This document shows positions 12,249-33,113 of a DNA stretch of 33,113 nt, piece after piece. The stretch is from IMG/VR virus record IMGVR_UViG_2529292715_000006; one strand, written 5' to 3'. The stretch comes from a virus. Lineage: Duplodnaviria; Heunggongvirae; Uroviricota; Caudoviricetes. Position numbers and translations under genes: made by a program. The notes beneath the pieces are model-generated. The model made no database searches and was not told the origin of the DNA. It saw only the letters and a list, made by a program, of their open reading frames with translations. The stretch's first letter is position 1. Every line of letters starts with the position of its first letter.

Positions 12249-13580
12249 TTACTGGATGAATGACATTTGATTAATATATTTTATCAATAACTCTCTGGGT
12301 GTAGTACTCCAAAAATTTAGGTGTTCATAATCAGTATAAACAGTGGTGAATTTTTTAAGTTCTTCATCACTTTTAGGGGCAAATCGCTCATTAAGAGTAA
12401 TACTGTCTTTAATTATTCCGAAGAATACAATAGATATTTCAGGAATTTGCGATCTTCTCTCATAAGAATAAGGTATTTCTTTTATGTTAAGCAGATCTGC
12501 TAAATGAGATATAGATTCTGCGGTAATTTCTTGTTTTAGTTTTTCCTTGTCACCAAAGCAATGTATGAAGACAGCTACGACAAAGATCTTATTTATTAAA
12601 GGATCACTGCTTTTGTACTCATCGTCGTTTAATAGTTGAAAAATGTTAAGATTGCGTGAAAAAGTTTGTGTTTCACGTAAGGATAAGTTGGTTCGTTGAA
12701 TTAAATCACGGATAAATCTACCAGATAACCTATTAATTTCATTTAATGATTTTGTCTTGTCTACAAGGTAATTCCAATATATAACAGATGTTTTACATAC
12801 GACGTGACCATTTATTAAACATGTGTCTGGAAGCGTGATGGTATATTTTATAAACTTGTCAAGATACTTTTGTGAGTTAATACTATAACCATAAATATGA
12901 TTTATCGATGCTTTTAATTGTTCTGTGTTTGTAACTAAAATAAAAAAGACATTATTGATGTCAAAAATGTGTTTTATTGTTTCAATGACATTTGTTGAAA
13001 AACTCGGCTTACATCGGTCTAATTCATCAATTATAATTACTATCTTTTGACTTTCTGAAATGCTTTCGATGCAAGATTTAAGTGAATTTATGTTTTTCTC
13101 TGATTCCATATGGTCTTCAAGCAAATTTTCAATAGTCCCATCTATTGCTGCATTGCTTGCTTTCTTCATCGCATCTTGGAATTCTTCGGAAACTTCACTA
13201 GCCTCCTGTCGTAAAAACCAACCTGCACCAGCTTTTAGTACCGTTTTTAAACCAAAGCGAATTGCAGGAAGAGATCTCTTAATGAAGTGTTGTTTTTCTT
13301 CCTCAGGTAAAATGCTGGCAATTGCAGAGGTTATGAGAAGTAATGGAGATTCTGCATGATCCCCTTTAAAGGCATCAATATAAACAACTTTAGATTCAGT
13401 TTCTTGCTCAATAATGAGATTTTTCAGTTTGATACTAAATTCTGTTTTCCCTGTTCCCCATGCGCCGTCTATTACCAGTGGTGAAATGTCTGCCTCTGGT
13501 TTTAGCAACTTGATGATATTTTCAGCGATGTTTCTGCGTTGGAACTCGTCACGTTCAGTGAAAGATAGTGTATCTAACAT
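12249..13580 (-). CDS. KAP-family P-loop NTPase (PifA-like), candidate abortive-infection/defence protein
   Basis: 443 aa; Walker A ...DGAWGTGKTEF...; Walker B ...KIVIIIDELDRC...; markedly AT-rich; opposite orientation to flanking phage genes. Confidence 0.85.
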   Translation of the reverse strand: MLDTLSFTERDEFQRRNIAENIIKLLKPEADISPLVIDGAWGTGKTEFSIKLKNLIIEQETESKVVYIDAFKGDHAESPLLLITSAIASILPEEEKQHFIKRSLPAIRFGLKTVLKAGAGWFLRQEASEVSEEFQDAMKKASNAAIDGTIENLLEDHMESEKNINSLKSCIESISESQKIVIIIDELDRCKPSFSTNVIETIKHIFDINNVFFILVTNTEQLKASINHIYGYSINSQKYLDKFIKYTITLPDTCLINGHVVCKTSVIYWNYLVDKTKSLNEINRLSGRFIRDLIQRTNLSLRETQTFSRNLNIFQLLNDDEYKSSDPLINKIFVVAVFIHCFGDKEKLKQEITAESISHLADLLNIKEIPYSYERRSQIPEISIVFFGIIKDSITLNERFAPKSDEELKKFTTVYTDYEHLNFWSTTPRELLIKYINQMSFIQ

Positions 13581-14206: not shown

Positions 14207-14683
14207 ATGCAGGTACTAAATTCCCAGCGTAAAGCTTTCCTCGATATGGTGGCATGGTCAGAAGGAACGGATAACGGGCGACAACCGACACGTAATCACG
14301 GTTATGATGTTATTGTTGGCGGCGAACTGTTTACTGATTACTCTGATCACCCTCGCAAACTTGTCACGCTAAACCCCAAACTCAAATCAACAGCCGCCGG
14401 ACGTTATCAGCTTCTTTCACGCTGGTGGGATGCCTACCGTAAGCAGCTTGCTCTGAAAGACTTCTCCCCCAAAAGCCAGGATGCTGTGGCACTGCAACAG
14501 ATTAAAGAGCGTGGCGCTTTACCGATGATTGATCGCGGTGATATTCGTCAGGCTATCGACCGTTGCAGCAATATCTGGGCGTCGTTACCCGGTGCAGGTT
14601 ATGGTCAGTATGAACATAAAATCGGTGATTTGATTGCCCGGTTTAAAGAGGCTGGTGGGGTGGTAAATGAAGCTGAGCTATAA
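14207..14683 (+). CDS. R: Endolysin, lambda R-like lytic transglycosylase
   Basis: ...NSQRKAFLDMVAWSEGTDNGRQPTRNHGYDVIVGGELFTDYSDHPRKLVTLNPKLKSTAAGRYQLLSRWWDAYRKQL... is near-identical in motif content to lambda R; AAGGAG SD. Confidence 0.9.
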   Translation: MQVLNSQRKAFLDMVAWSEGTDNGRQPTRNHGYDVIVGGELFTDYSDHPRKLVTLNPKLKSTAAGRYQLLSRWWDAYRKQLALKDFSPKSQDAVALQQIKERGALPMIDRGDIRQAIDRCSNIWASLPGAGYGQYEHKIGDLIARFKEAGGVVNEAEL

Positions 14684-15059
14684 GCTGCTTATCGTTGGTT
14701 TCTTCGTTACTGTCATTGGTTCTTTCATCTGGTCGGCCAACCACTACTACAGCAAATATCAGTACGAAAAGAAACGTGCTGATGAGGCTGTACGAAATGC
14801 TGAATCAGCAACTGCCATTACCAATAACGTCCTGCAATCACTACAAATCGTCAATACAGTTCTGGAGGCTAACCAGCATGCAAAACAGCAGATCGCACTG
14901 GAGTCACAGAGAGCCCGGGAAGATATCAAAGTGGCTGTTGCGGATGATGATTGTGCTTCACGCCCTGTGCCTGATGTCGCTGCTGACCGGTTGCGGAAGT
15001 ACGCGGACAGTATACGTGCAGGTTCCAACGATGCCGTTACCGACGAACCTGCTCGCTGA
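14667..15059 (+). CDS. Rz-type inner-membrane spanin
   Basis: N-terminal transmembrane helix LLIVGFFVTVIGSFIWSA followed by a charged helical region; overlaps the endolysin stop. Confidence 0.75.
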   Translation: MKLSYKLLIVGFFVTVIGSFIWSANHYYSKYQYEKKRADEAVRNAESATAITNNVLQSLQIVNTVLEANQHAKQQIALESQRAREDIKVAVADDDCASRPVPDVAADRLRKYADSIRAGSNDAVTDEPAR

Positions 15060-15222
15060 AACTCCACAGCCAGTTATACCCAATCCTCTGACTTATGGGG
15101 ATAGTCTTAGTTTGAATGTAAGTCTGCTATCAGCACTGGGGCTATGTAACCGTGATAAGTCTGATCTTCGTAGGTTAGGAGAGCAAAAGTACAATCTGCA
15201 TTTGAATAATAATATTCATTAG
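14944..15222 (+). CDS. Rz1-type outer-membrane lipoprotein spanin (overlapped architecture)
   Basis: In the +1 frame of Rz: MMIVLHALCLMSLLTGCGS... (lipobox LLTGC) then Pro-rich PTMPLPTNLLAETPQPVIPNP; extends past the Rz stop. Confidence 0.6.
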   Translation: MMIVLHALCLMSLLTGCGSTRTVYVQVPTMPLPTNLLAETPQPVIPNPLTYGDSLSLNVSLLSALGLCNRDKSDLRRLGEQKYNLHLNNNIH

Positions 15223-15237
15223 GTGAAATATTATTAT

Positions 15238-15272
15238 TTGACTGTTCTAGTTATTATGCATTTAGTTACAAT
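15238..15272 (+). promoter_or_regulatory. Possible sigma70-type promoter for the membrane-protein moron
   Basis: TTGACT at 15238-15243, then weak -10 candidates (TTTAGT / TACAAT) in AT-rich DNA; low confidence. Confidence 0.3.
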
Positions 15273-15299
15273 ACTCTCACTATTAACAGTGAGGTAAAA

Positions 15300-25565: not shown

Positions 25566-25921
25566 TGGCCCGTATCGGGGGAACCTGTTATTTCAAAATT
25601 GACGGTCAACAGCTATCGCTGACCGGCGGCATTGAGGTGCCCATGAACAGGACGGTCAATGATGACATCATCGGCCTGGACGGTTCAGTGGACCGCAAGG
25701 AAACTCACCGTGCGCCTTATGTCAAAGGGACCTTCAAGGTGCCGAAGAATTTTCCGGCGAGCAAAATCACCTCGTCTGATGAGATGACCATCACTGCCGA
25801 GCTGGCGAACGGTCAGGTCTATGTACTGTCGTCTGCCTGGCTGCACGGCGAAGCGAACCATAATGCCGAAGAAGGCACGGTCGATCTTGAGTTCCACGGT
25901 GAAGAAGGGGATTACCAGTAA
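25565..25921 (+). CDS. Tail tube protein (Mu gpM-like)
   Basis: 118 aa, TAATG-coupled to the sheath gene; AGGAG SD. Confidence 0.8.
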   Translation: MARIGGTCYFKIDGQQLSLTGGIEVPMNRTVNDDIIGLDGSVDRKETHRAPYVKGTFKVPKNFPASKITSSDEMTITAELANGQVYVLSSAWLHGEANHNAEEGTVDLEFHGEEGDYQ

Positions 25922-26190
25922 TGAAAGAGCTTGAGTTAAAGAAACCGATTACCGCTCATGGCGAGACACTCTCCGTACTGGAGTTTGATGAGCCCACCGG
26001 GAAAGATGTCCGCGAGCTGGGGTATCCCTACCAGATGAATCAGGATGAGTCCGTCAGACTTCTGGCGCATGTGGTATCGAAATATATTGTGCGGCTGGCG
26101 AAAGTGCCGCAAAGCTCTGTCGACCAGATGTCTCCGGCAGACCTGAATGCAGCGGCGTGGCTTGTGGCTGGTTTTTTCCTCCAGGCCTGA
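25921..26190 (+). CDS. Tail assembly chaperone (G-like product)
   Basis: 89 aa immediately upstream of the tape measure gene; ends ...VAGFFLQA*. Confidence 0.75.
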   Translation: MKELELKKPITAHGETLSVLEFDEPTGKDVRELGYPYQMNQDESVRLLAHVVSKYIVRLAKVPQSSVDQMSPADLNAAAWLVAGFFLQA

Positions 26191-26339
26191 CGGCTGAATA
26201 CCTTACTGATCGCTTCTTTGATTGCGCCAGCTACTGGCGCATTAATCCCTTCGAATTGCTGAATATGCCGATCAGTGAAATTCCCTTGCTGGTCAGTCAG
26301 GCAAACAGGATAGAGCAGGAGAAACGCACACATGGCTGA
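25921..26339 (+). CDS. Tail assembly chaperone -1 frameshift fusion (GT-like product)
   Basis: Slippery heptamer T TTT TTC at 26172-26178; the -1 frame continues FFPPGLTAEYLTDRFFDCASYWRINPFELLNMPISEIPLLVSQANRIEQEKRTHG* to 26339. Confidence 0.6.
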
Positions 26340-28227: not shown

Positions 28228-29556
28228 ATGACGTGGAAAGACAGACTTCAGGACGCGTCATTTCGCGGTGTGCCGTTTAAGGTTGAAGAAGAAAATGCGG
28301 GAACCGGTCGTCGTGTGGAAACGCACGAATACCCGAACCGCGACAAACCCTATACCGAAGATCTGGGAAAAGTCACTTTCCGCCCGTCCATCACGGCTTA
28401 TGTGGTGGGAGATGACTGCTTTGACCAGCGCGATCGCCTGATTGACGCGCTGAATAAACCCGGTCCCGGCACGCTTGTCCATCCGACATACGGTGAGCTG
28501 AAAGTCTGTGTTGACGGGGAGGTTCGGGTCAGCACATCGAAGGGTGAAGGGCGTATTGTCCGCTTTGACCTGAAGTTTGTCGAAGCGGGAGAACTCTCTT
28601 ACCCCACATCAGGTGCGGCGACGGCGCAGACGCTGATGTCATCCTGTTCTGCACTGGATGACTGCATCAGTGACAGTTTCAGTGGTTTCAGTATCGATGG
28701 CGTGGCAGATTTTGTGCAGAACGACGTCGTCGGTAATGCCAGCACAATGCTTGGGTATGTTTCTGATGCGATGAAAGTGGTGGATTCTGCCGTATCGGAT
28801 GTCGCCAGGCTGTTGCAGGGGGATATCTCGGTACTTCTGCCGCCGCCATCGTCAGGCAAAAATTTCGTTGAGCAGGTGCAGAAAATGTGGCGTACCGGGA
28901 AACGCCTTTATGGTAACGCCAGCGACCTGGTCACCATGATCAAAACGCTTTCCGGTGTCAGCCTCGGCAGCGATCTGCAACCGCGCGGCGTCTGGAAAAC
29001 GGACAGTAAAACCACCGCCACGGCGACGCAGCAGCGTAACGTGGTTGCCAGCACCCTTCGTACGACCGCAATCAGCGAAGCGGCGTATGCCGTCACCCGA
29101 TTGCCTGCGCCAACAACTTCCGCGGTGATGCAGAATGCCGCAGTGGAGCAGGCAACAACACCTGCGCAGAGCACTGGCTGGCCTTCCGTCACGCATCCGG
29201 CACTGAACAATGCACCGGCGGTGAAAAACACGGTTGACCTGCCGACGTGGGAAGAACTGACTGACATTCGCGACACACTGAATACGGCAATTGATAAGGA
29301 GTTGTCCCGTACAACCAGTGATGCGCTGTTTCTGGCGCTGCGCCGGGTGAAAGCAGATCTGAATGCGGATATCAACACGCGCCTTGAACAGTCTGCACGG
29401 ATCATTCAGCGCACACCGGATGAGGTTTTACCCGCGCTGGTGCTGGCGGCGACCTGGTTTGATAACGCGGCGCGTGACGCGGACATTATCCGGCGTAATG
29501 CCATTACGCATCCCGGCTTTGTGCCGGTGATCCCTCTGAAGGTGCCAGTGCAATGA
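28228..29556 (+). CDS. Mu gpN-like DNA circularisation / tail protein
   Basis: ATG 28228 with GGAG upstream; MTWKDRLQDASFRGVPFKVEEENAGTGRRVETHEYPNRDKPYTEDLGK... Confidence 0.75.
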   Translation: MTWKDRLQDASFRGVPFKVEEENAGTGRRVETHEYPNRDKPYTEDLGKVTFRPSITAYVVGDDCFDQRDRLIDALNKPGPGTLVHPTYGELKVCVDGEVRVSTSKGEGRIVRFDLKFVEAGELSYPTSGAATAQTLMSSCSALDDCISDSFSGFSIDGVADFVQNDVVGNASTMLGYVSDAMKVVDSAVSDVARLLQGDISVLLPPPSSGKNFVEQVQKMWRTGKRLYGNASDLVTMIKTLSGVSLGSDLQPRGVWKTDSKTTATATQQRNVVASTLRTTAISEAAYAVTRLPAPTTSAVMQNAAVEQATTPAQSTGWPSVTHPALNNAPAVKNTVDLPTWEELTDIRDTLNTAIDKELSRTTSDALFLALRRVKADLNADINTRLEQSARIIQRTPDEVLPALVLAATWFDNAARDADIIRRNAITHPGFVPVIPLKVPVQ

Positions 29557-30632
29557 ACGATAACGTCACGCTACGGGTAAATGGCCGGGAGTGGAATGGC
29601 TGGACATCGGTGCGCATCGGTGCCGGTATTGAACGGCTGGCGCGGGATTTCAGTGTGGAGATCTCCCGCCAGTGGCCGGGAGATGGGGGTATCACCACGC
29701 TTCAGCCGCGCATTAAAAACGGTTCAAAAGTGGAAGTGCTGATTGGTGATGAGCTGGTGATCACCGGCTGGGTGGAGGCGACGCCCGTTCGTTACGATGC
29801 CCGTTCGGTCAGCACCGGTATTGCCGGACGCAGTCTGACGGCTGACCTGATTGACTGTGCAGCCGAACCGACACAGTTTAACGGACGAGAGCTGGTACAG
29901 ATTGCGCAGGCGCTTGCTGCGCCTTTCGGCATTGAGGTGGTGAACAACGGTGCGCCGTCGGGTGTTATTCCTGACGTCCAGCCCGATCACGGTGAAACGG
30001 TGATTGAGGTAATCAACAAAATACTCGGTCAGCAGCAGGCACTGGCTTACGACGACCCGCACGGCAGGCTGGTGATTGGTGGTATTGGCTCAACGCGGGC
30101 ACATACTGCGCTGGTACTCGGGGAAAACATCCTTTCCTGCGATACGGAGAAGAGTATCCGGGAGCGGTTTTCTGTTTACCAGGTGGCGGGGCAGCGTGCC
30201 GGAAACGACGATGATTTCGGTGAGGCCACCACCACCGCGCTGCGGGCCCGCACAGAGGACGCATTTATTGCCCGTTACCGTCCGATGTATATCAGGCAGA
30301 CAGGGCAGGCCACGGGGGCAGGCTGTACTGCGCGTGCTGACTTTGAAGCCCGGCAACGGGCGGCGCGGACGGATGAAACCACCTATGTGGTGCAGGGCTG
30401 GCGACAGGGTAACGGTACGCTGTGGCAGCCCAACCAGCGGGTGATTGTCTTCGATCCGGTCTGTGGTTTTGACAATACCGAACTGCTTGTCTCGGAAGTC
30501 ACGTTTACTCAGGACCAGAATGGCACTCTGACGGAAATCCGTGTCGGCCCGCCTGATGCTTATCTGCCTGAACCCGAAGACCCCGGCGCGCGGAAAAAGA
30601 AAAAAGCCAGAGTACAGGAGGACCCGTTCTGA
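29553..30632 (+). CDS. Baseplate protein (Mu gpP-like)
   Basis: 359 aa, ATGA-coupled to the upstream gene. Confidence 0.75.
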   Translation: MNDNVTLRVNGREWNGWTSVRIGAGIERLARDFSVEISRQWPGDGGITTLQPRIKNGSKVEVLIGDELVITGWVEATPVRYDARSVSTGIAGRSLTADLIDCAAEPTQFNGRELVQIAQALAAPFGIEVVNNGAPSGVIPDVQPDHGETVIEVINKILGQQQALAYDDPHGRLVIGGIGSTRAHTALVLGENILSCDTEKSIRERFSVYQVAGQRAGNDDDFGEATTTALRARTEDAFIARYRPMYIRQTGQATGAGCTARADFEARQRAARTDETTYVVQGWRQGNGTLWQPNQRVIVFDPVCGFDNTELLVSEVTFTQDQNGTLTEIRVGPPDAYLPEPEDPGARKKKKARVQEDPF

Positions 30633-31179
30633 TGAGGACGATTGAAGCCATGCAGCGACAACTCCTCGGCCTGATTGGGCGGGCCGTGGTGAAAAGCATC
30701 AGTGCCGCCACGAAATGTCTGACCGTGGATGTGTCCCTGATTGCCGGTGAACCCAAAGCCGGGTTGAACATCTTGAACCCTACGGTTTTACCGCAAGGGC
30801 AAACAGCGGTGCGGAAGCGGTGGTGTTGTTTCCGGATGGCGACCGTTCTCATGCGGTGGTTGTTACGGTGTCAGACCGGCGCTACCGCCTGAAAGGGCTG
30901 CAGACGGGTGAGGTGGCTGTCTATGACGATCAGGGGCAGTCCGTGACGCTGACCCGGGAGGGGATCGTGGTGGACGGTGCAGGTAAAACGATCACGTTTC
31001 GCAATGCACCTGAAGCACGTTTTGAAATGGACCTGGAAGTAACAGGACAGGTGAAAGACCTGTGCGACTCCGGCGGCACCACCATGTCAGCAATGCGGCT
31101 TGCCTATAACGGTCATCGTCACAGAGAGAACGGTCAGGGCAGTAACACCGATAAACCTGATAAAGCTATGGAGGCATGA
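30632..31179 (+). pseudogene. Baseplate spike/assembly protein (gpV / Mu gp45-like) with a frame break near 30750-30770
   Basis: N-terminus in one frame (30632-30892) and the remainder in the next frame (open 30751-31179: ...VEHLEPYGFTARANSGAEAVVLFPDGDRSHAVVVTVSDRRYRLKGLQTGEVAVYDDQGQSVTL...); neither ORF alone is full length. Confidence 0.6.
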
Positions 31180-31604
31180 TGGAACTGTGGCTGACGGTGA
31201 ACGGTAAACGCACCTGCGCCAGCGCACCGCTGGATCCGCTGACCCGCGCCGTGGTGATTTCCCTGTTTACCTGGCGGCGGGCGGAGCCTGATGACAACGC
31301 CGACGTCCCGATGGGATGGTGGGGGGATACCTGGCCTGCGGTACAGAATGACCGTTACGCCTCCAGACTGTGGCTGCTTCAGCGCAGCAAACTGACCAAT
31401 CAGCTGGTGCAGACGGTAAGGGGGTATATCCGCGAATGCCTGCAATGGATGACTGATGACGGCGTGGTGTCCCGTATTGATCTGGATATCCGCCGCACCG
31501 GGATTAATGAACTGGGTAACAGTATCACTCTCTGGCGTCGTGACGGACCGGTAATGATTTCTTTTGATGATCTGTGGAGTGCGATAACGCATGGCGGACA
31601 GTGA
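31176..31604 (+). CDS. Baseplate protein (Mu gp46-like)
   Basis: 142 aa, ATGA-coupled. Confidence 0.75.
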   Translation: MMELWLTVNGKRTCASAPLDPLTRAVVISLFTWRRAEPDDNADVPMGWWGDTWPAVQNDRYASRLWLLQRSKLTNQLVQTVRGYIRECLQWMTDDGVVSRIDLDIRRTGINELGNSITLWRRDGPVMISFDDLWSAITHGGQ

Positions 31605-32649
31605 ATTTCAGCGCCCGACGCTGGCAGAAAATATCAGTATGCTCCGTAACGATTTATTCGCCAGGCTGGACGTCAGCGACACGCTACGGCGCATGGATGA
31701 AGACGTGCGGGCAAAGGTGTATGCGGCGGCGCTGCATACGGTTTACGGGTACATCGATTATCTGGCAATGAACATGCTGCCTGACCTGTGCGATGAGTTC
31801 TGGCTGGCGCGACATGCTGCGATGAAACGGTGTCCGCGCAAGGGGGCCACGGCTGCCAGCGGGTATATGCGCTGGGAAGGTGTCAGCGATGGCCTGAAGG
31901 TGACCGCCGGAAGTGTTATTCAGCGCGATGACCTGGTTCAGTACACGGCAACTGCCGATGCAGCCAGCTCCGGTGGTGTCCTGCGCCTGCCGATCGCCTG
32001 TTCAACTGCAGGCGCGGTCGGTAACGCTGACGACGGTACGGCATTAATCCTGGTCACGCCGGTGAATGGTCTGCCGTCTTCCGGTGTTGCAGATACCCTG
32101 ACAGGTGGATTTGATACTGAAGAGCTGGAAACGTGGCGCGCCCGCGTCATTGAGCGGTATTACTGGACGCCGCAGGGCGGGGCTGACGGGGACTATGTCG
32201 TCTGGGCTAAAGAAGTGCCCGGCATTACCCGCGCATGGGCATACCGTCACTGGATGGGAACGGGGACTGTCGGTGTGATGATTGCCAGTAGTGACCTGAT
32301 TAATCCCATTCCGGAAGAATCAACGGAAACGGCGGCAAGACAACATATCGGGCCGCTGGCCCCGGTGGCAGGCTCTGATTTGTATGTGTTCAGGCCGGTG
32401 GCGCATACGGTGGATTTTCATATCCGTGTGACGCCGGATACACCGGAAATACGGGCTGCCATCACCGCGGAGTTGCGTTCGTTCCTGCTGCGTGATGGTT
32501 ATCCGCAGGGAGAACTGAAGGTATCGCGTATCAGTGAGGCGATTTCCGGTGCGAACGGGGAATACAGCCATCAGTTGCTTGCCCCGGCTGACAATATCTC
32601 CATTGCAAAAAATGAACTGGCGGTTCTGGGGACGATTTCATGGACGTGA
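31591..32649 (+). CDS. Baseplate J-like wedge protein (Mu gp47-like)
   Basis: 352 aa; position in the baseplate operon. Confidence 0.8.
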
Positions 32650-33113
32650 CAAACGATGATTACATCCGTCTGTTGTCGGCACTGTTGCCCCCCGGTCCGG
32701 CGTGGTCAGCCAGAGATCCGGCGATTGCCGGTGCGGCACCGTCATTAACCCGCGTTCATCAGCGTGCGGATGTCCTGATGCGGGAGCTGGATCCGCGCAC
32801 CACCACTGAACTGATAAACCGCTGGGAGCGTCTGTGCGGTCTGCCGGATGAATGTATTCCCGCAGGGACACAGACCCTTCGCCAGCGTCAGCAACGACTG
32901 GATGCGAAGGTTAACCTGGCGGGCGGCATCAATGAGGATTTTTACCTTGCACAGCTTGCTGCCCTGGGCAGACCAGACGCCACCATCACGCGATACGACA
33001 AAAGCACGTTCACCTGCTCATCTGCCTGTACTGACGCGGTGAATGCGCCGGAATGGCGGTATTACTGGCAGGTCAACATGCCAGTCGCCACCAACAGCAC
33101 CTGGATGACATGT
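32640..33113 (+). CDS. Tail protein (Mu gp48-like), N-terminal 158 codons (runs off right edge)
   Basis: ATG 32640 ([53 protein letters not shown]...) open to the window end; absent from the ORF track because there is no in-window stop. Confidence 0.7.

What the first reader, a model, noticed from the sequence alone, without database searches (positions are those of the whole stretch)
30632..31179. Frame break in the baseplate spike gene
The N-terminal ~44 codons are in one frame (ORF 30632-30892) and the remaining ~139 codons, including a conserved-looking YGF...GAEA...GDRSHAVVV segment, are in the adjacent frame, which is open from 30751. The track ORF 30820-31179 starts at an internal GTG. 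The switch maps near the GCCGGG run around 30758-30763. This is either a 1-bp indel (a third inactivating lesion in this prophage) or a sequencing error in a G/C run.
Basis: partly seen in the sequence, partly recalled or inferred. Interest (0 to 1): 0.5.

Follow-up and report, generated by a model that had tools for sequence, protein, structure and literature searches.

The report
One-base break in prophage spike gene
The tail-spike gene of an already dead Shigella flexneri prophage is split because one G is missing from a GGGG run, an ordinary single-base lesion or draft-assembly error that occurs in this one assembly only.

Summary
Codons 1-44 (30632-30763) are in one frame. The other 138 codons run to 31179 in the -1 frame.

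Close relatives read GCCGGGGTTGAAC where the window reads GCCGGG-TTGAAC. One G of a G4 run is missing at 30761-30763. Adding it back gives a 182-aa protein identical to a Shigella flexneri "baseplate assembly protein V" found on 187 other contigs. That protein is a Mu gp45-type central spike (PF06890, TIGR01644, PDB 9ki1_V).

Homologues are overwhelmingly single ORFs of about 180 aa. The overlap has no slippery heptamer. So this is neither two genes nor recoding.

The window is contig AFGW01000012.1 of S. flexneri VA-6. The prophage was already dead in the whole lineage, from a terminase W515* stop codon and an IS1 insertion, both shared with sister genomes.

The missing G occurs only in VA-6. 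It lies in a cluster of VA-6-only differences near a contig end that stops mid-gene. I therefore lean slightly towards a consensus error (about 0.57) over a true recent deletion (about 0.40). Only reads or PCR can decide.

Either way the finding is ordinary.

The parts
30632..30763 (+). Codons 1-44 of the spike gene (Mu gp45 / gpV type) in the original frame. The start ATG overlaps the hub gene's stop (TGATG).
   Evidence: Identical to residues 1-44 of the intact S. flexneri protein P0121.
30761..30763 (+). GGG run where one G is missing. It is GGGG in the closest relatives and GGGA in some E. coli prophages. This is the site of the frame break.
   Evidence: 77 of 80 IMG/VR loci carry GGGG and 3 carry GGGA.
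30764..30892 (+). Out-of-frame tail: 42 missense codons plus a TGA stop, read if translation continues in the original frame. The product would be 86 aa.
   Evidence: It matches no Pfam or NCBIfam family.
30764..31179 (+). Rest of the spike gene (residues 45-182 plus stop) in the -1 frame. Codon 45 (GTT) lacks its first base. Contains the conserved EPYGFT and DGDRSH segments and the invariant HxH motif (GHRHREN).
   Evidence: All 11 differences from L011 within the called 118-aa fragment (30823-31179) are synonymous.
30820..31179 (+). Mechanical ORF from an internal GTG. The public record annotates 30823-31179 as the 118-aa 'bacteriophage Mu Gp45 family protein' EGK28979.1.
   Evidence: On its own it scores below the TIGR01644 cut-off (25.8 against 46.75 bits).
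29553..30632 (+). Upstream neighbour: baseplate hub, Mu gp44 / GpP type.
   Evidence: Pfam PF21683, PF22255 and PF21929.
31176..31604 (+). Downstream neighbour: baseplate wedge, Mu gp46 type. Its start overlaps the spike gene's stop (ATGATG).
   Evidence: Pfam PF07409.

Best explanation
Shown: positions 30632-31179 are one gene, the central baseplate spike of an SfV/SfI/SfII-type prophage (Mu gp45 / gpV family). Its frame is broken after codon 44 because the contig has GGG where intact copies have GGGG. As written, the gene can yield only an 86-aa product (44 native residues plus 42 missense residues). That product lacks most of the N-terminal OB-fold domain and all of the beta-helix and HxH apex. 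The early stop would also uncouple translation of the overlapping downstream wedge genes. No spike could be made. Inferred: the missing G is somewhat more likely a base-calling or consensus error of the 2011 draft assembly of S. flexneri VA-6 than a mutation present in the strain's DNA. It is a homopolymer-length difference seen in no sister genome, and it lies among other assembly-only differences in the last 3 kb of a contig that ends in mid-gene. Biologically it makes no difference, because the prophage had already lost its large terminase to a stop codon shared by the whole lineage.
For: One gene, one missing G:
- Relatives at 96-99.9% identity differ here by exactly one base.
- Adding G gives a 182-aa protein identical to P0121, 'phage baseplate assembly protein V [Shigella flexneri]', found on 187 contigs including the complete genome CP032513.1.
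- PF06890 spans residues 17-84 of the repaired protein, across the break (E 1.2e-22). TIGR01644 is passed only by the repaired protein.
- Mu gp45 (PDB 9ki1_V) aligns over residues 5-116, E 3e-13.
- Most of the best 120 homologues listed are single proteins of about 180-182 aa; the exceptions are shorter partials and a few longer or fused calls. The residues around the break are invariant or nearly so.
- 72 of 76 complete IMG/VR copies are 182 aa. The plaque-forming phages SfI, SfII, SfIV and SfV carry the extra base.

Seen in this assembly only:
- 0 of 1095 E. coli records have the deletion.
- 0 hits in GTDB representatives, IMG/VR and JGI metagenomes, against at least 120 IMG/VR hits for the intact pattern.
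- Sister contig L006 differs from the window at only 7 positions in 11.9 kb and has GGGG.

Lean towards artefact:
- Against sister genomes, positions 2249-30040 (27.8 kb) hold one VA-6-only difference and no indel.
- Positions 30328-31963 hold three VA-6-only substitutions plus this indel. The three alleles occur in 0 of 111-121 other loci. Two of them were also tested against the E. coli records that match each site (481 and 1099) and were found in none.
- The binomial run (5 of 6 private differences in the last 3 kb) gave P about 5e-5. That count included 32088T, which the same call showed to be a known polymorphism. With the corrected count of 4 of 5, my own arithmetic gives P about 5e-4. 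Both figures are post hoc.
- The contig stops inside the gp48 gene, whereas sister contigs continue 2.4 kb further.
- An independent Logan assembly of run SRR059931 reproduces VA-6's private terminase allele at 100% identity over 5 kb. It does not contain the VA-6-specific gp44, the 118-aa fragment or gp47.
- Another sister assembly (L050) has three other homopolymer indels in this same gene, so such artefacts do occur in drafts of this lineage.
Against: - No reads were available, so artefact against mutation is inference only.
- The rest of the contig is clean. The other roughly 350 homopolymer runs of 4 or more bases in the 24.3 kb from 8799 onward show no length difference from sister contigs, so the assembly is not generally error-prone.
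- The neighbouring assembly-only differences are substitutions, which is not the usual error type of homopolymer-prone platforms.
- The gene has been free of selection since the terminase stop codon. It already carries Q30L at an otherwise invariant position.
- The same GGGG-to-GGG change occurs in an unrelated contig 3.3% diverged (L011), so the run does contract in nature, unless that contig is itself in error.
- The sequencing platform of VA-6 could not be established.
Confidence: 0.57

Rival explanations
1. The G is truly missing from the VA-6 chromosome. This would be a recent strain-specific slipped-strand contraction of the G4 run, adding a third lesion to a prophage already inactivated by IS1 and a terminase stop codon. 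That is ordinary pseudogene decay of the kind typical of Shigella.
For: - The prophage was dead before the lineage diversified. TerL W515* (TGG to TAG) and the IS1 insertion are shared with CP032513.1 and other sister contigs.
- The lineage's spike protein already has Q30L at an invariant column.
- The same contraction is seen in L011, a 96.7%-identical prophage from another sample.
- Other samples carry other lesions in the same 190 nt: E46* stop, an 11-bp duplication, a 48-bp deletion and larger truncations.
- The contig shows no other indel against sister contigs over about 31 kb.
- VA-6 has at least one confirmed private substitution, at 18190.
Against: - None of the 187 contigs carrying the identical repaired protein shares the deletion.
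- It sits in a significant local cluster of VA-6-only differences near a contig end that stops mid-gene. A true mutation process does not explain that cluster.
- The independent assembly of SRR059931 does not yield the 118-aa fragment or the neighbouring VA-6-specific proteins.
Confidence: 0.4
2. The break is functional. Either a programmed -1 ribosomal frameshift or slippage at the G run restores a full-length spike, or the two ORFs are truly separate genes.
For: The required shift is -1 and the two frames overlap by 142 nt. The same G3 state recurs in a second, diverged prophage.
Against: - No X_XXY_YYZ heptamer lies in the overlap in the upstream frame. The codons at the site are CCC AAA GCC GGG TTG.
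- The same window does hold a canonical site, T_TTT_TTC, in the tail-chaperone gene.
- Nearly all listed homologues, and all four functional phages, encode one continuous ORF.
- Neither fragment reaches a family threshold on its own.
- The break cuts through the PF06890 domain.
Confidence: 0.02

Closest known systems
Phage Mu gp45, the trimeric central baseplate spike (PDB 9ki1 chain V; Pfam PF06890)
   Same: The repaired protein matches PF06890 over residues 17-84 (E 1.2e-22). It aligns with Mu gp45 residues 14-125 (E 3e-13). It lies between gp44-type hub and gp46-type wedge genes and keeps an invariant HxH motif near the C-terminus. Mu gp45 has an OB-fold, a beta-helix and an apex domain with presumed Fe and Ca ions (PMC11915804).
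   Different: In the window the ORF is interrupted after codon 44. The C-terminal third does not align with Mu gp45 by sequence. The fold was not confirmed, because the AlphaFold model was unusable.
Spike genes of the Shigella serotype-converting phages SfV (orf17), SfI, SfII and SfIV ('baseplate assembly protein V')
   Same: 97.5-98.0% nucleotide identity over 30400-31400, with the same gene order of hub, spike and wedge.
   Different: Those phages carry the extra base: the match is 1002 nt against 1001 nt, and the spike is one ORF. The window's copy is frameshifted, and its prophage also lacks a functional large terminase.
P2 gpV family (NCBIfam TIGR01644, phage_P2_V)
   Same: The repaired protein scores 49.4 bits against a cut-off of 46.75.
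   Different: This is only a marginal pass. The Pfam assignment is to the Mu gp45 N-terminal family, not the P2 gpV family.
Programmed -1 frameshift of tail assembly chaperone genes (lambda G/GT type)
   Same: Two overlapping frames that require a -1 shift.
   Different: That system has a conserved slippery heptamer and a conserved two-frame layout. It is present in this same window at 26172-26178. The spike break has neither feature.

Membership tests
Mu gp45 / gpV central spike | N-terminal gp45 (OB-fold) domain recognised by PF06890 | tested here: met
   The repaired protein scores E 1.2e-22 over residues 17-84, covering the full model. Neither fragment as written matches.
Mu gp45 / gpV central spike | Score above the curated cut-off of TIGR01644 (phage_P2_V) | tested here: met
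   The repaired protein scores 49.4 bits against 46.75. The C-terminal fragment alone scores 25.8 bits, and the N-terminal fragment has no hit.
Mu gp45 / gpV central spike | Position between the hub (gp44/GpP) and wedge (gp46, gp47/J) genes | tested here: met
   Pfam assignments of the neighbours 29553-30632, 31176-31604 and 31591-32649.
Mu gp45 / gpV central spike | C-terminal HxH metal-binding apex motif | tested here: met
   H162 and H164 are invariant in 27 homologues and present in the window as GHRHREN. That this motif binds metal is taken from PMC11915804 and prior knowledge, not tested here.
Mu gp45 / gpV central spike | Trimeric OB-fold plus beta-helix structure | tested here: inconclusive
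   The AlphaFold2 monomer model had mean pLDDT 39.5 and pTM 0.27, too poor for a fold search.
Mu gp45 / gpV central spike | One continuous ORF of about 180-197 aa | tested here: not met
   The ORF is broken after codon 44 in the window. It is continuous in relatives. The window therefore holds a disrupted copy, not a functional member.
Programmed -1 ribosomal frameshift site | Slippery heptamer X_XXY_YYZ in the upstream frame within the overlap | tested here: not met
   None lies within 30751-30889. The only hit starts on the last base of the stop codon.
Programmed -1 ribosomal frameshift site | Two-frame layout conserved in homologues | tested here: not met
   Homologues are single ORFs.
Programmed -1 ribosomal frameshift site | Downstream stimulatory RNA structure | not tested
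   Not pursued after the two features above failed.
Genuine homopolymer-slippage pseudogene | Length change of a homopolymer relative to intact orthologues | tested here: met
   GGGG to GGG at 30761-30763.
Genuine homopolymer-slippage pseudogene | Independent signs of relaxed selection in the same element | tested here: met
   TerL W515* and IS1 are shared with sister genomes. Q30L sits at an invariant column.
Genuine homopolymer-slippage pseudogene | Support from sequencing reads or resequencing | not testable with these tools
   No read access. Indirect look-ups in the Logan assembly of SRR059931 did not recover the frameshifted product.

The most novel reading that the evidence does not exclude
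The G4 run in the spike gene could be a recurrent slippage hot spot that acts as an on/off switch for spike and tail production in SfV-like prophages, or that is tolerated through low-level slippage. The identical contraction appears in two prophages 3.3% apart (the window and L011).
Probability: 0.02. Interest if true: 0.3.

Novelty: already known. Interest (0 to 1): 0.07.

Why it matters
It matters very little biologically. The prophage cannot package DNA anyway, so a broken spike gene changes nothing. The practical value is for annotation. Positions 30632-31179 should be treated as one frameshifted gp45-type gene rather than a 118-aa "Mu Gp45 family protein". Single-base homopolymer differences found only in an old draft contig, especially near contig ends, should not be counted as Shigella pseudogenes without read support.

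Tried and rejected
- **Structure prediction.** The AlphaFold2 model of the intact homologue P0002, built with a 27-sequence alignment, had pLDDT 39.5, so no fold search was run.
- **Searches for the deletion allele elsewhere.** Exact 40-mer scans of GTDB representative genomes, IMG/VR and JGI metagenomes all gave 0 hits. Exact look-ups of the 86-aa and 119-aa mechanical ORFs were not on record.
- **Independent read-level evidence.** The Logan assembly of SRR059931 holds VA-6's terminase region. I could not retrieve a contig of that run covering the spike gene. Look-ups of VA-6-specific gp44, gp47 and the 118-aa fragment did not return that run. This absence is only suggestive.
- **Sequencing platform of VA-6.** Literature searches found nothing usable.
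- **ORF 12249-13580 (-).** I first suspected an IS transposase. It is a KAP P-loop NTPase.
- **Position 32088T.** I first counted it as VA-6-only. A wider comparison showed it is a known polymorphism, present in 25 of 110 loci, so it was dropped from the private cluster.
- **Recombination as the source of the private alleles.** Rejected, because 30328C, 31686A and 31963G occur in none of 111-121 other loci. The first two also occur in none of the 481 and 1099 matching E. coli records.
- **Look-up of the 313-aa early protein.** It returned only unrelated E. coli prophages and did not help.

Full report
**The observation.** From ATG 30632 the frame stays open to a TGA at 30890-30892, giving 86 codons. 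The adjacent frame (+2, equivalent to a -1 shift) is open from 30751 to the TGA at 31177-31179. It contains VEHLEPYGFTARANSGAEAVVLFPDGDRSHAVVV. The listed ORF 30820-31179 begins at an internal GTG.

**Source of the window.** Exact-protein look-ups identify the window as the whole contig AFGW01000012.1 (33,113 nt) of assembly GCA_000213695.2. The 118-aa product of 30823-31179 is EGK28979.1, [quoted passage not shown]. The element is an SfV/SfI/SfII-type prophage with lambdoid early genes, an HK97-type head and a Mu-type contractile tail. In the closest E. coli relative (MDK9L1) the integrase end adjoins tRNA-Thr next to proA.

**The lesion.**
- About 1,100 E. coli records match 30400-31400 at 95-99% identity, and the listed best matches span 1002 nt against the query's 1001.
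- Strain 82.0311 reads GCC GGG ATT GAA.
- The closest relatives read GCC GGG GTT GAA. These are MDK9L1 at 99.5% over 7.1 kb, and the sister contigs L006 and L007.
- 77 of 80 IMG/VR loci also read GGGG.
- The window reads GCCGGG-TTGAA, so one G of a G4 run is missing at 30761-30763.
- Adding the G gives a 182-aa protein. That protein exists, residue for residue, as "phage baseplate assembly protein V [Shigella flexneri]" on 187 contigs, including the complete chromosome CP032513.1.

**The gene.**
- The repaired protein matches Pfam PF06890 (Mu Gp45 N-terminal) over residues 17-84, straight across the break, with E 1.2e-22. Neither fragment matches anything in Pfam.
- It passes NCBIfam TIGR01644 (phage_P2_V) at 49.4 bits against a cut-off of 46.75. 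The C-terminal fragment alone scores 25.8 bits.
- It aligns with Mu gp45 in PDB 9ki1 chain V, E 3e-13.
- Mu gp45 is the trimeric spike. It has an OB-fold, a beta-helix and an apex carrying presumed Fe and Ca ions (PMC11915804).
- The neighbours are the gp44-type hub, the gp46 wedge and the gp47/J wedge.
- In 27 homologues down to 63% identity, the residues flanking the break (K42, E46, E49, Y51, G52, T54) and the HxH motif (H162, H164) are invariant.
- An AlphaFold model was too poor to add anything.

**Not two genes, not recoding.**
- Most of the best 120 homologues listed are continuous proteins of about 180-182 aa. The exceptions are shorter partials and a few longer or fused calls.
- The plaque-forming phages SfI, SfII, SfIV and SfV carry the extra base.
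- 72 of 76 complete IMG/VR copies are 182 aa.
- The overlap contains no X_XXY_YYZ heptamer in the upstream frame.
- The same window does carry a canonical T_TTT_TTC site in the tail-chaperone gene at 26172-26178.

**Consequence as written (inferred).** The product would be an 86-aa peptide with 44 native residues. It lacks most of the OB-fold and the whole needle, so no spike could form. The early stop also breaks the start/stop overlaps that link hub, spike and wedge genes.

**State of the prophage.**
- The large terminase has TGG to TAG at codon 515 (18414-18416), with no indel.
- The same stop codon is present in sister genomes L019, L020 (CP032513.1) and L021, which are 99.8-99.995% identical over 17-21 kb. 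It is also in an independent Logan assembly of run SRR059931, which is 100% identical to 14524-19602.
- IS1 (1777-2544, with the 9-bp duplication AACTGGGGG) interrupts a yfdR-like gene. It is also in CP032513.1.
- The lineage's spike protein carries Q30L at a column invariant in other homologues.
- The element was therefore already dead, and the spike gene unselected, before VA-6 diverged.

**Real deletion or assembly error.**
- The G3 state occurs in VA-6 only:
  - 0 of 1095 E. coli records have it.
  - There are no hits in three public collections.
  - None of the sister contigs has it. L006 differs from the window at only 7 positions in 11.9 kb and has GGGG.
- Against sister genomes, 2249-30040 (27.8 kb) holds one VA-6-only substitution (18190, confirmed by the Logan assembly) and no indel.
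- Positions 30328-31963 hold three VA-6-only substitutions plus the indel. Those alleles are absent from 111-121 other loci. Two of them were tested against the 481 and 1099 matching E. coli records and are absent there too.
- For the clustering, the binomial run used 5 of 6 private differences and gave P about 5e-5. That count included 32088T, which the same call showed to be a known polymorphism. With the corrected 4 of 5, my arithmetic gives P about 5e-4. Both are post hoc.
- The contig then ends inside the gp48 gene, although sister contigs continue 2.4 kb further.
- The SRR059931 assembly contains VA-6's private terminase allele. It does not contain the VA-6-specific gp44, 118-aa or gp47 products.
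- Another sister draft (L050) has three different homopolymer indels in this gene.
- These points favour a low-quality contig end.
- Against that:
  - The other roughly 350 homopolymer runs of 4 or more bases in 8799-33113 show no length difference from sister contigs.
  - The neighbouring private differences are substitutions.
  - The gene is unselected.
  - The same contraction occurs in an unrelated contig 96.7% identical (L011, 119 substitutions and no gaps in 3.56 kb).
  - Other samples show other lesions in the same 190 nt.
- I put artefact at about 0.57, true deletion at about 0.40, and anything functional at about 0.02.

**Verdict.** This is a correctly spotted, ordinary single-base frame break in a known gene of a defunct prophage. 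It should be annotated as one frameshifted gp45-type gene. It has no novelty and very low interest.

Noticed in passing
window 18414-18416: The large terminase gene (16872-18605) has a premature stop, W515* (TGG to TAG). Sister S. flexneri genomes, including CP032513.1, share it, and an independent Logan assembly of SRR059931 reproduces it. The prophage cannot package DNA.
   Followed up: yes
window 1777-2544: A complete IS1 (InsA/InsB ORFs, inverted ends GGTAATG...) with the 9-bp target duplication AACTGGGGG (1768-1776 and 2545-2553) is inserted in a yfdR-like early gene. The same insertion is in CP032513.1. Short-read sister contigs break at this point.
   Followed up: yes
window 26172-26178 (gene 25921-26190): The tail assembly chaperone gene (PF10109) carries a canonical -1 slippery heptamer, T_TTT_TTC. 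The -1 frame stays open to 26339, overlapping the tape-measure start at 26332. This is the conserved programmed frameshift of tail chaperone genes.
   Followed up: partly
window 30328, 31686, 31963: Three substitutions occur only in this assembly: gp44 I259T, gp47 L32 silent and gp47 T125A. They cluster with the missing G in 1.6 kb near the contig's right end. The preceding 27.8 kb holds a single private difference. No biological cause was found.
   Followed up: partly
L011 1019-1347 (Logan SRR10682419 contig); window 30761-30763: An unrelated contig 96.7% identical to the window (119 substitutions, no gaps in 3.56 kb) has the identical GGGG-to-GGG contraction. The run is hit recurrently, or is miscalled recurrently.
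   Followed up: partly
L017, L030, L012, L013, L009, L010, L014, L016 (the region matching window 30741-30830): Other samples carry different lesions in the first 64 codons of the same gene. These are an E46* stop (GAA to TAA, 3 nt from the G run), an 11-bp duplication, a 48-bp deletion, and prophage remnants that begin inside the gene. All leave the same 118-aa C-terminal ORF.
   Followed up: partly
L050 (IMGVR_UViG_2537561620_000010), matching window 30600-31200: A sister-lineage assembly with no substitutions in these 600 nt keeps GGGG. It has three other homopolymer-length indels in the spike gene (+TT at 30832, -T at 30864, and -A at 30605 just upstream). These look like assembly errors.
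   Followed up: partly
window 30720: The S. flexneri lineage's spike protein has Q30L (CAG to CTG) at a position invariant in 27 homologues. 3 of 130 other loci share it. This fits relaxed selection after the terminase was lost.
   Followed up: partly
window 12249-13580 (-): A 443-aa KAP-family P-loop NTPase (PF07693, E 7e-70) lies on the opposite strand between the Q antiterminator and the lysis genes. It is a cargo gene, replaced by other genes in E. coli relatives. It is listed in 394 blocks of the collection.
   Followed up: no
window 1-631 and 32640-33113: The contig begins inside the integrase gene and ends inside the gp48-type gene. The right end is not at a repeat boundary, because sister contigs run 2.4 kb further through the tail-fibre genes.
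   Followed up: partly
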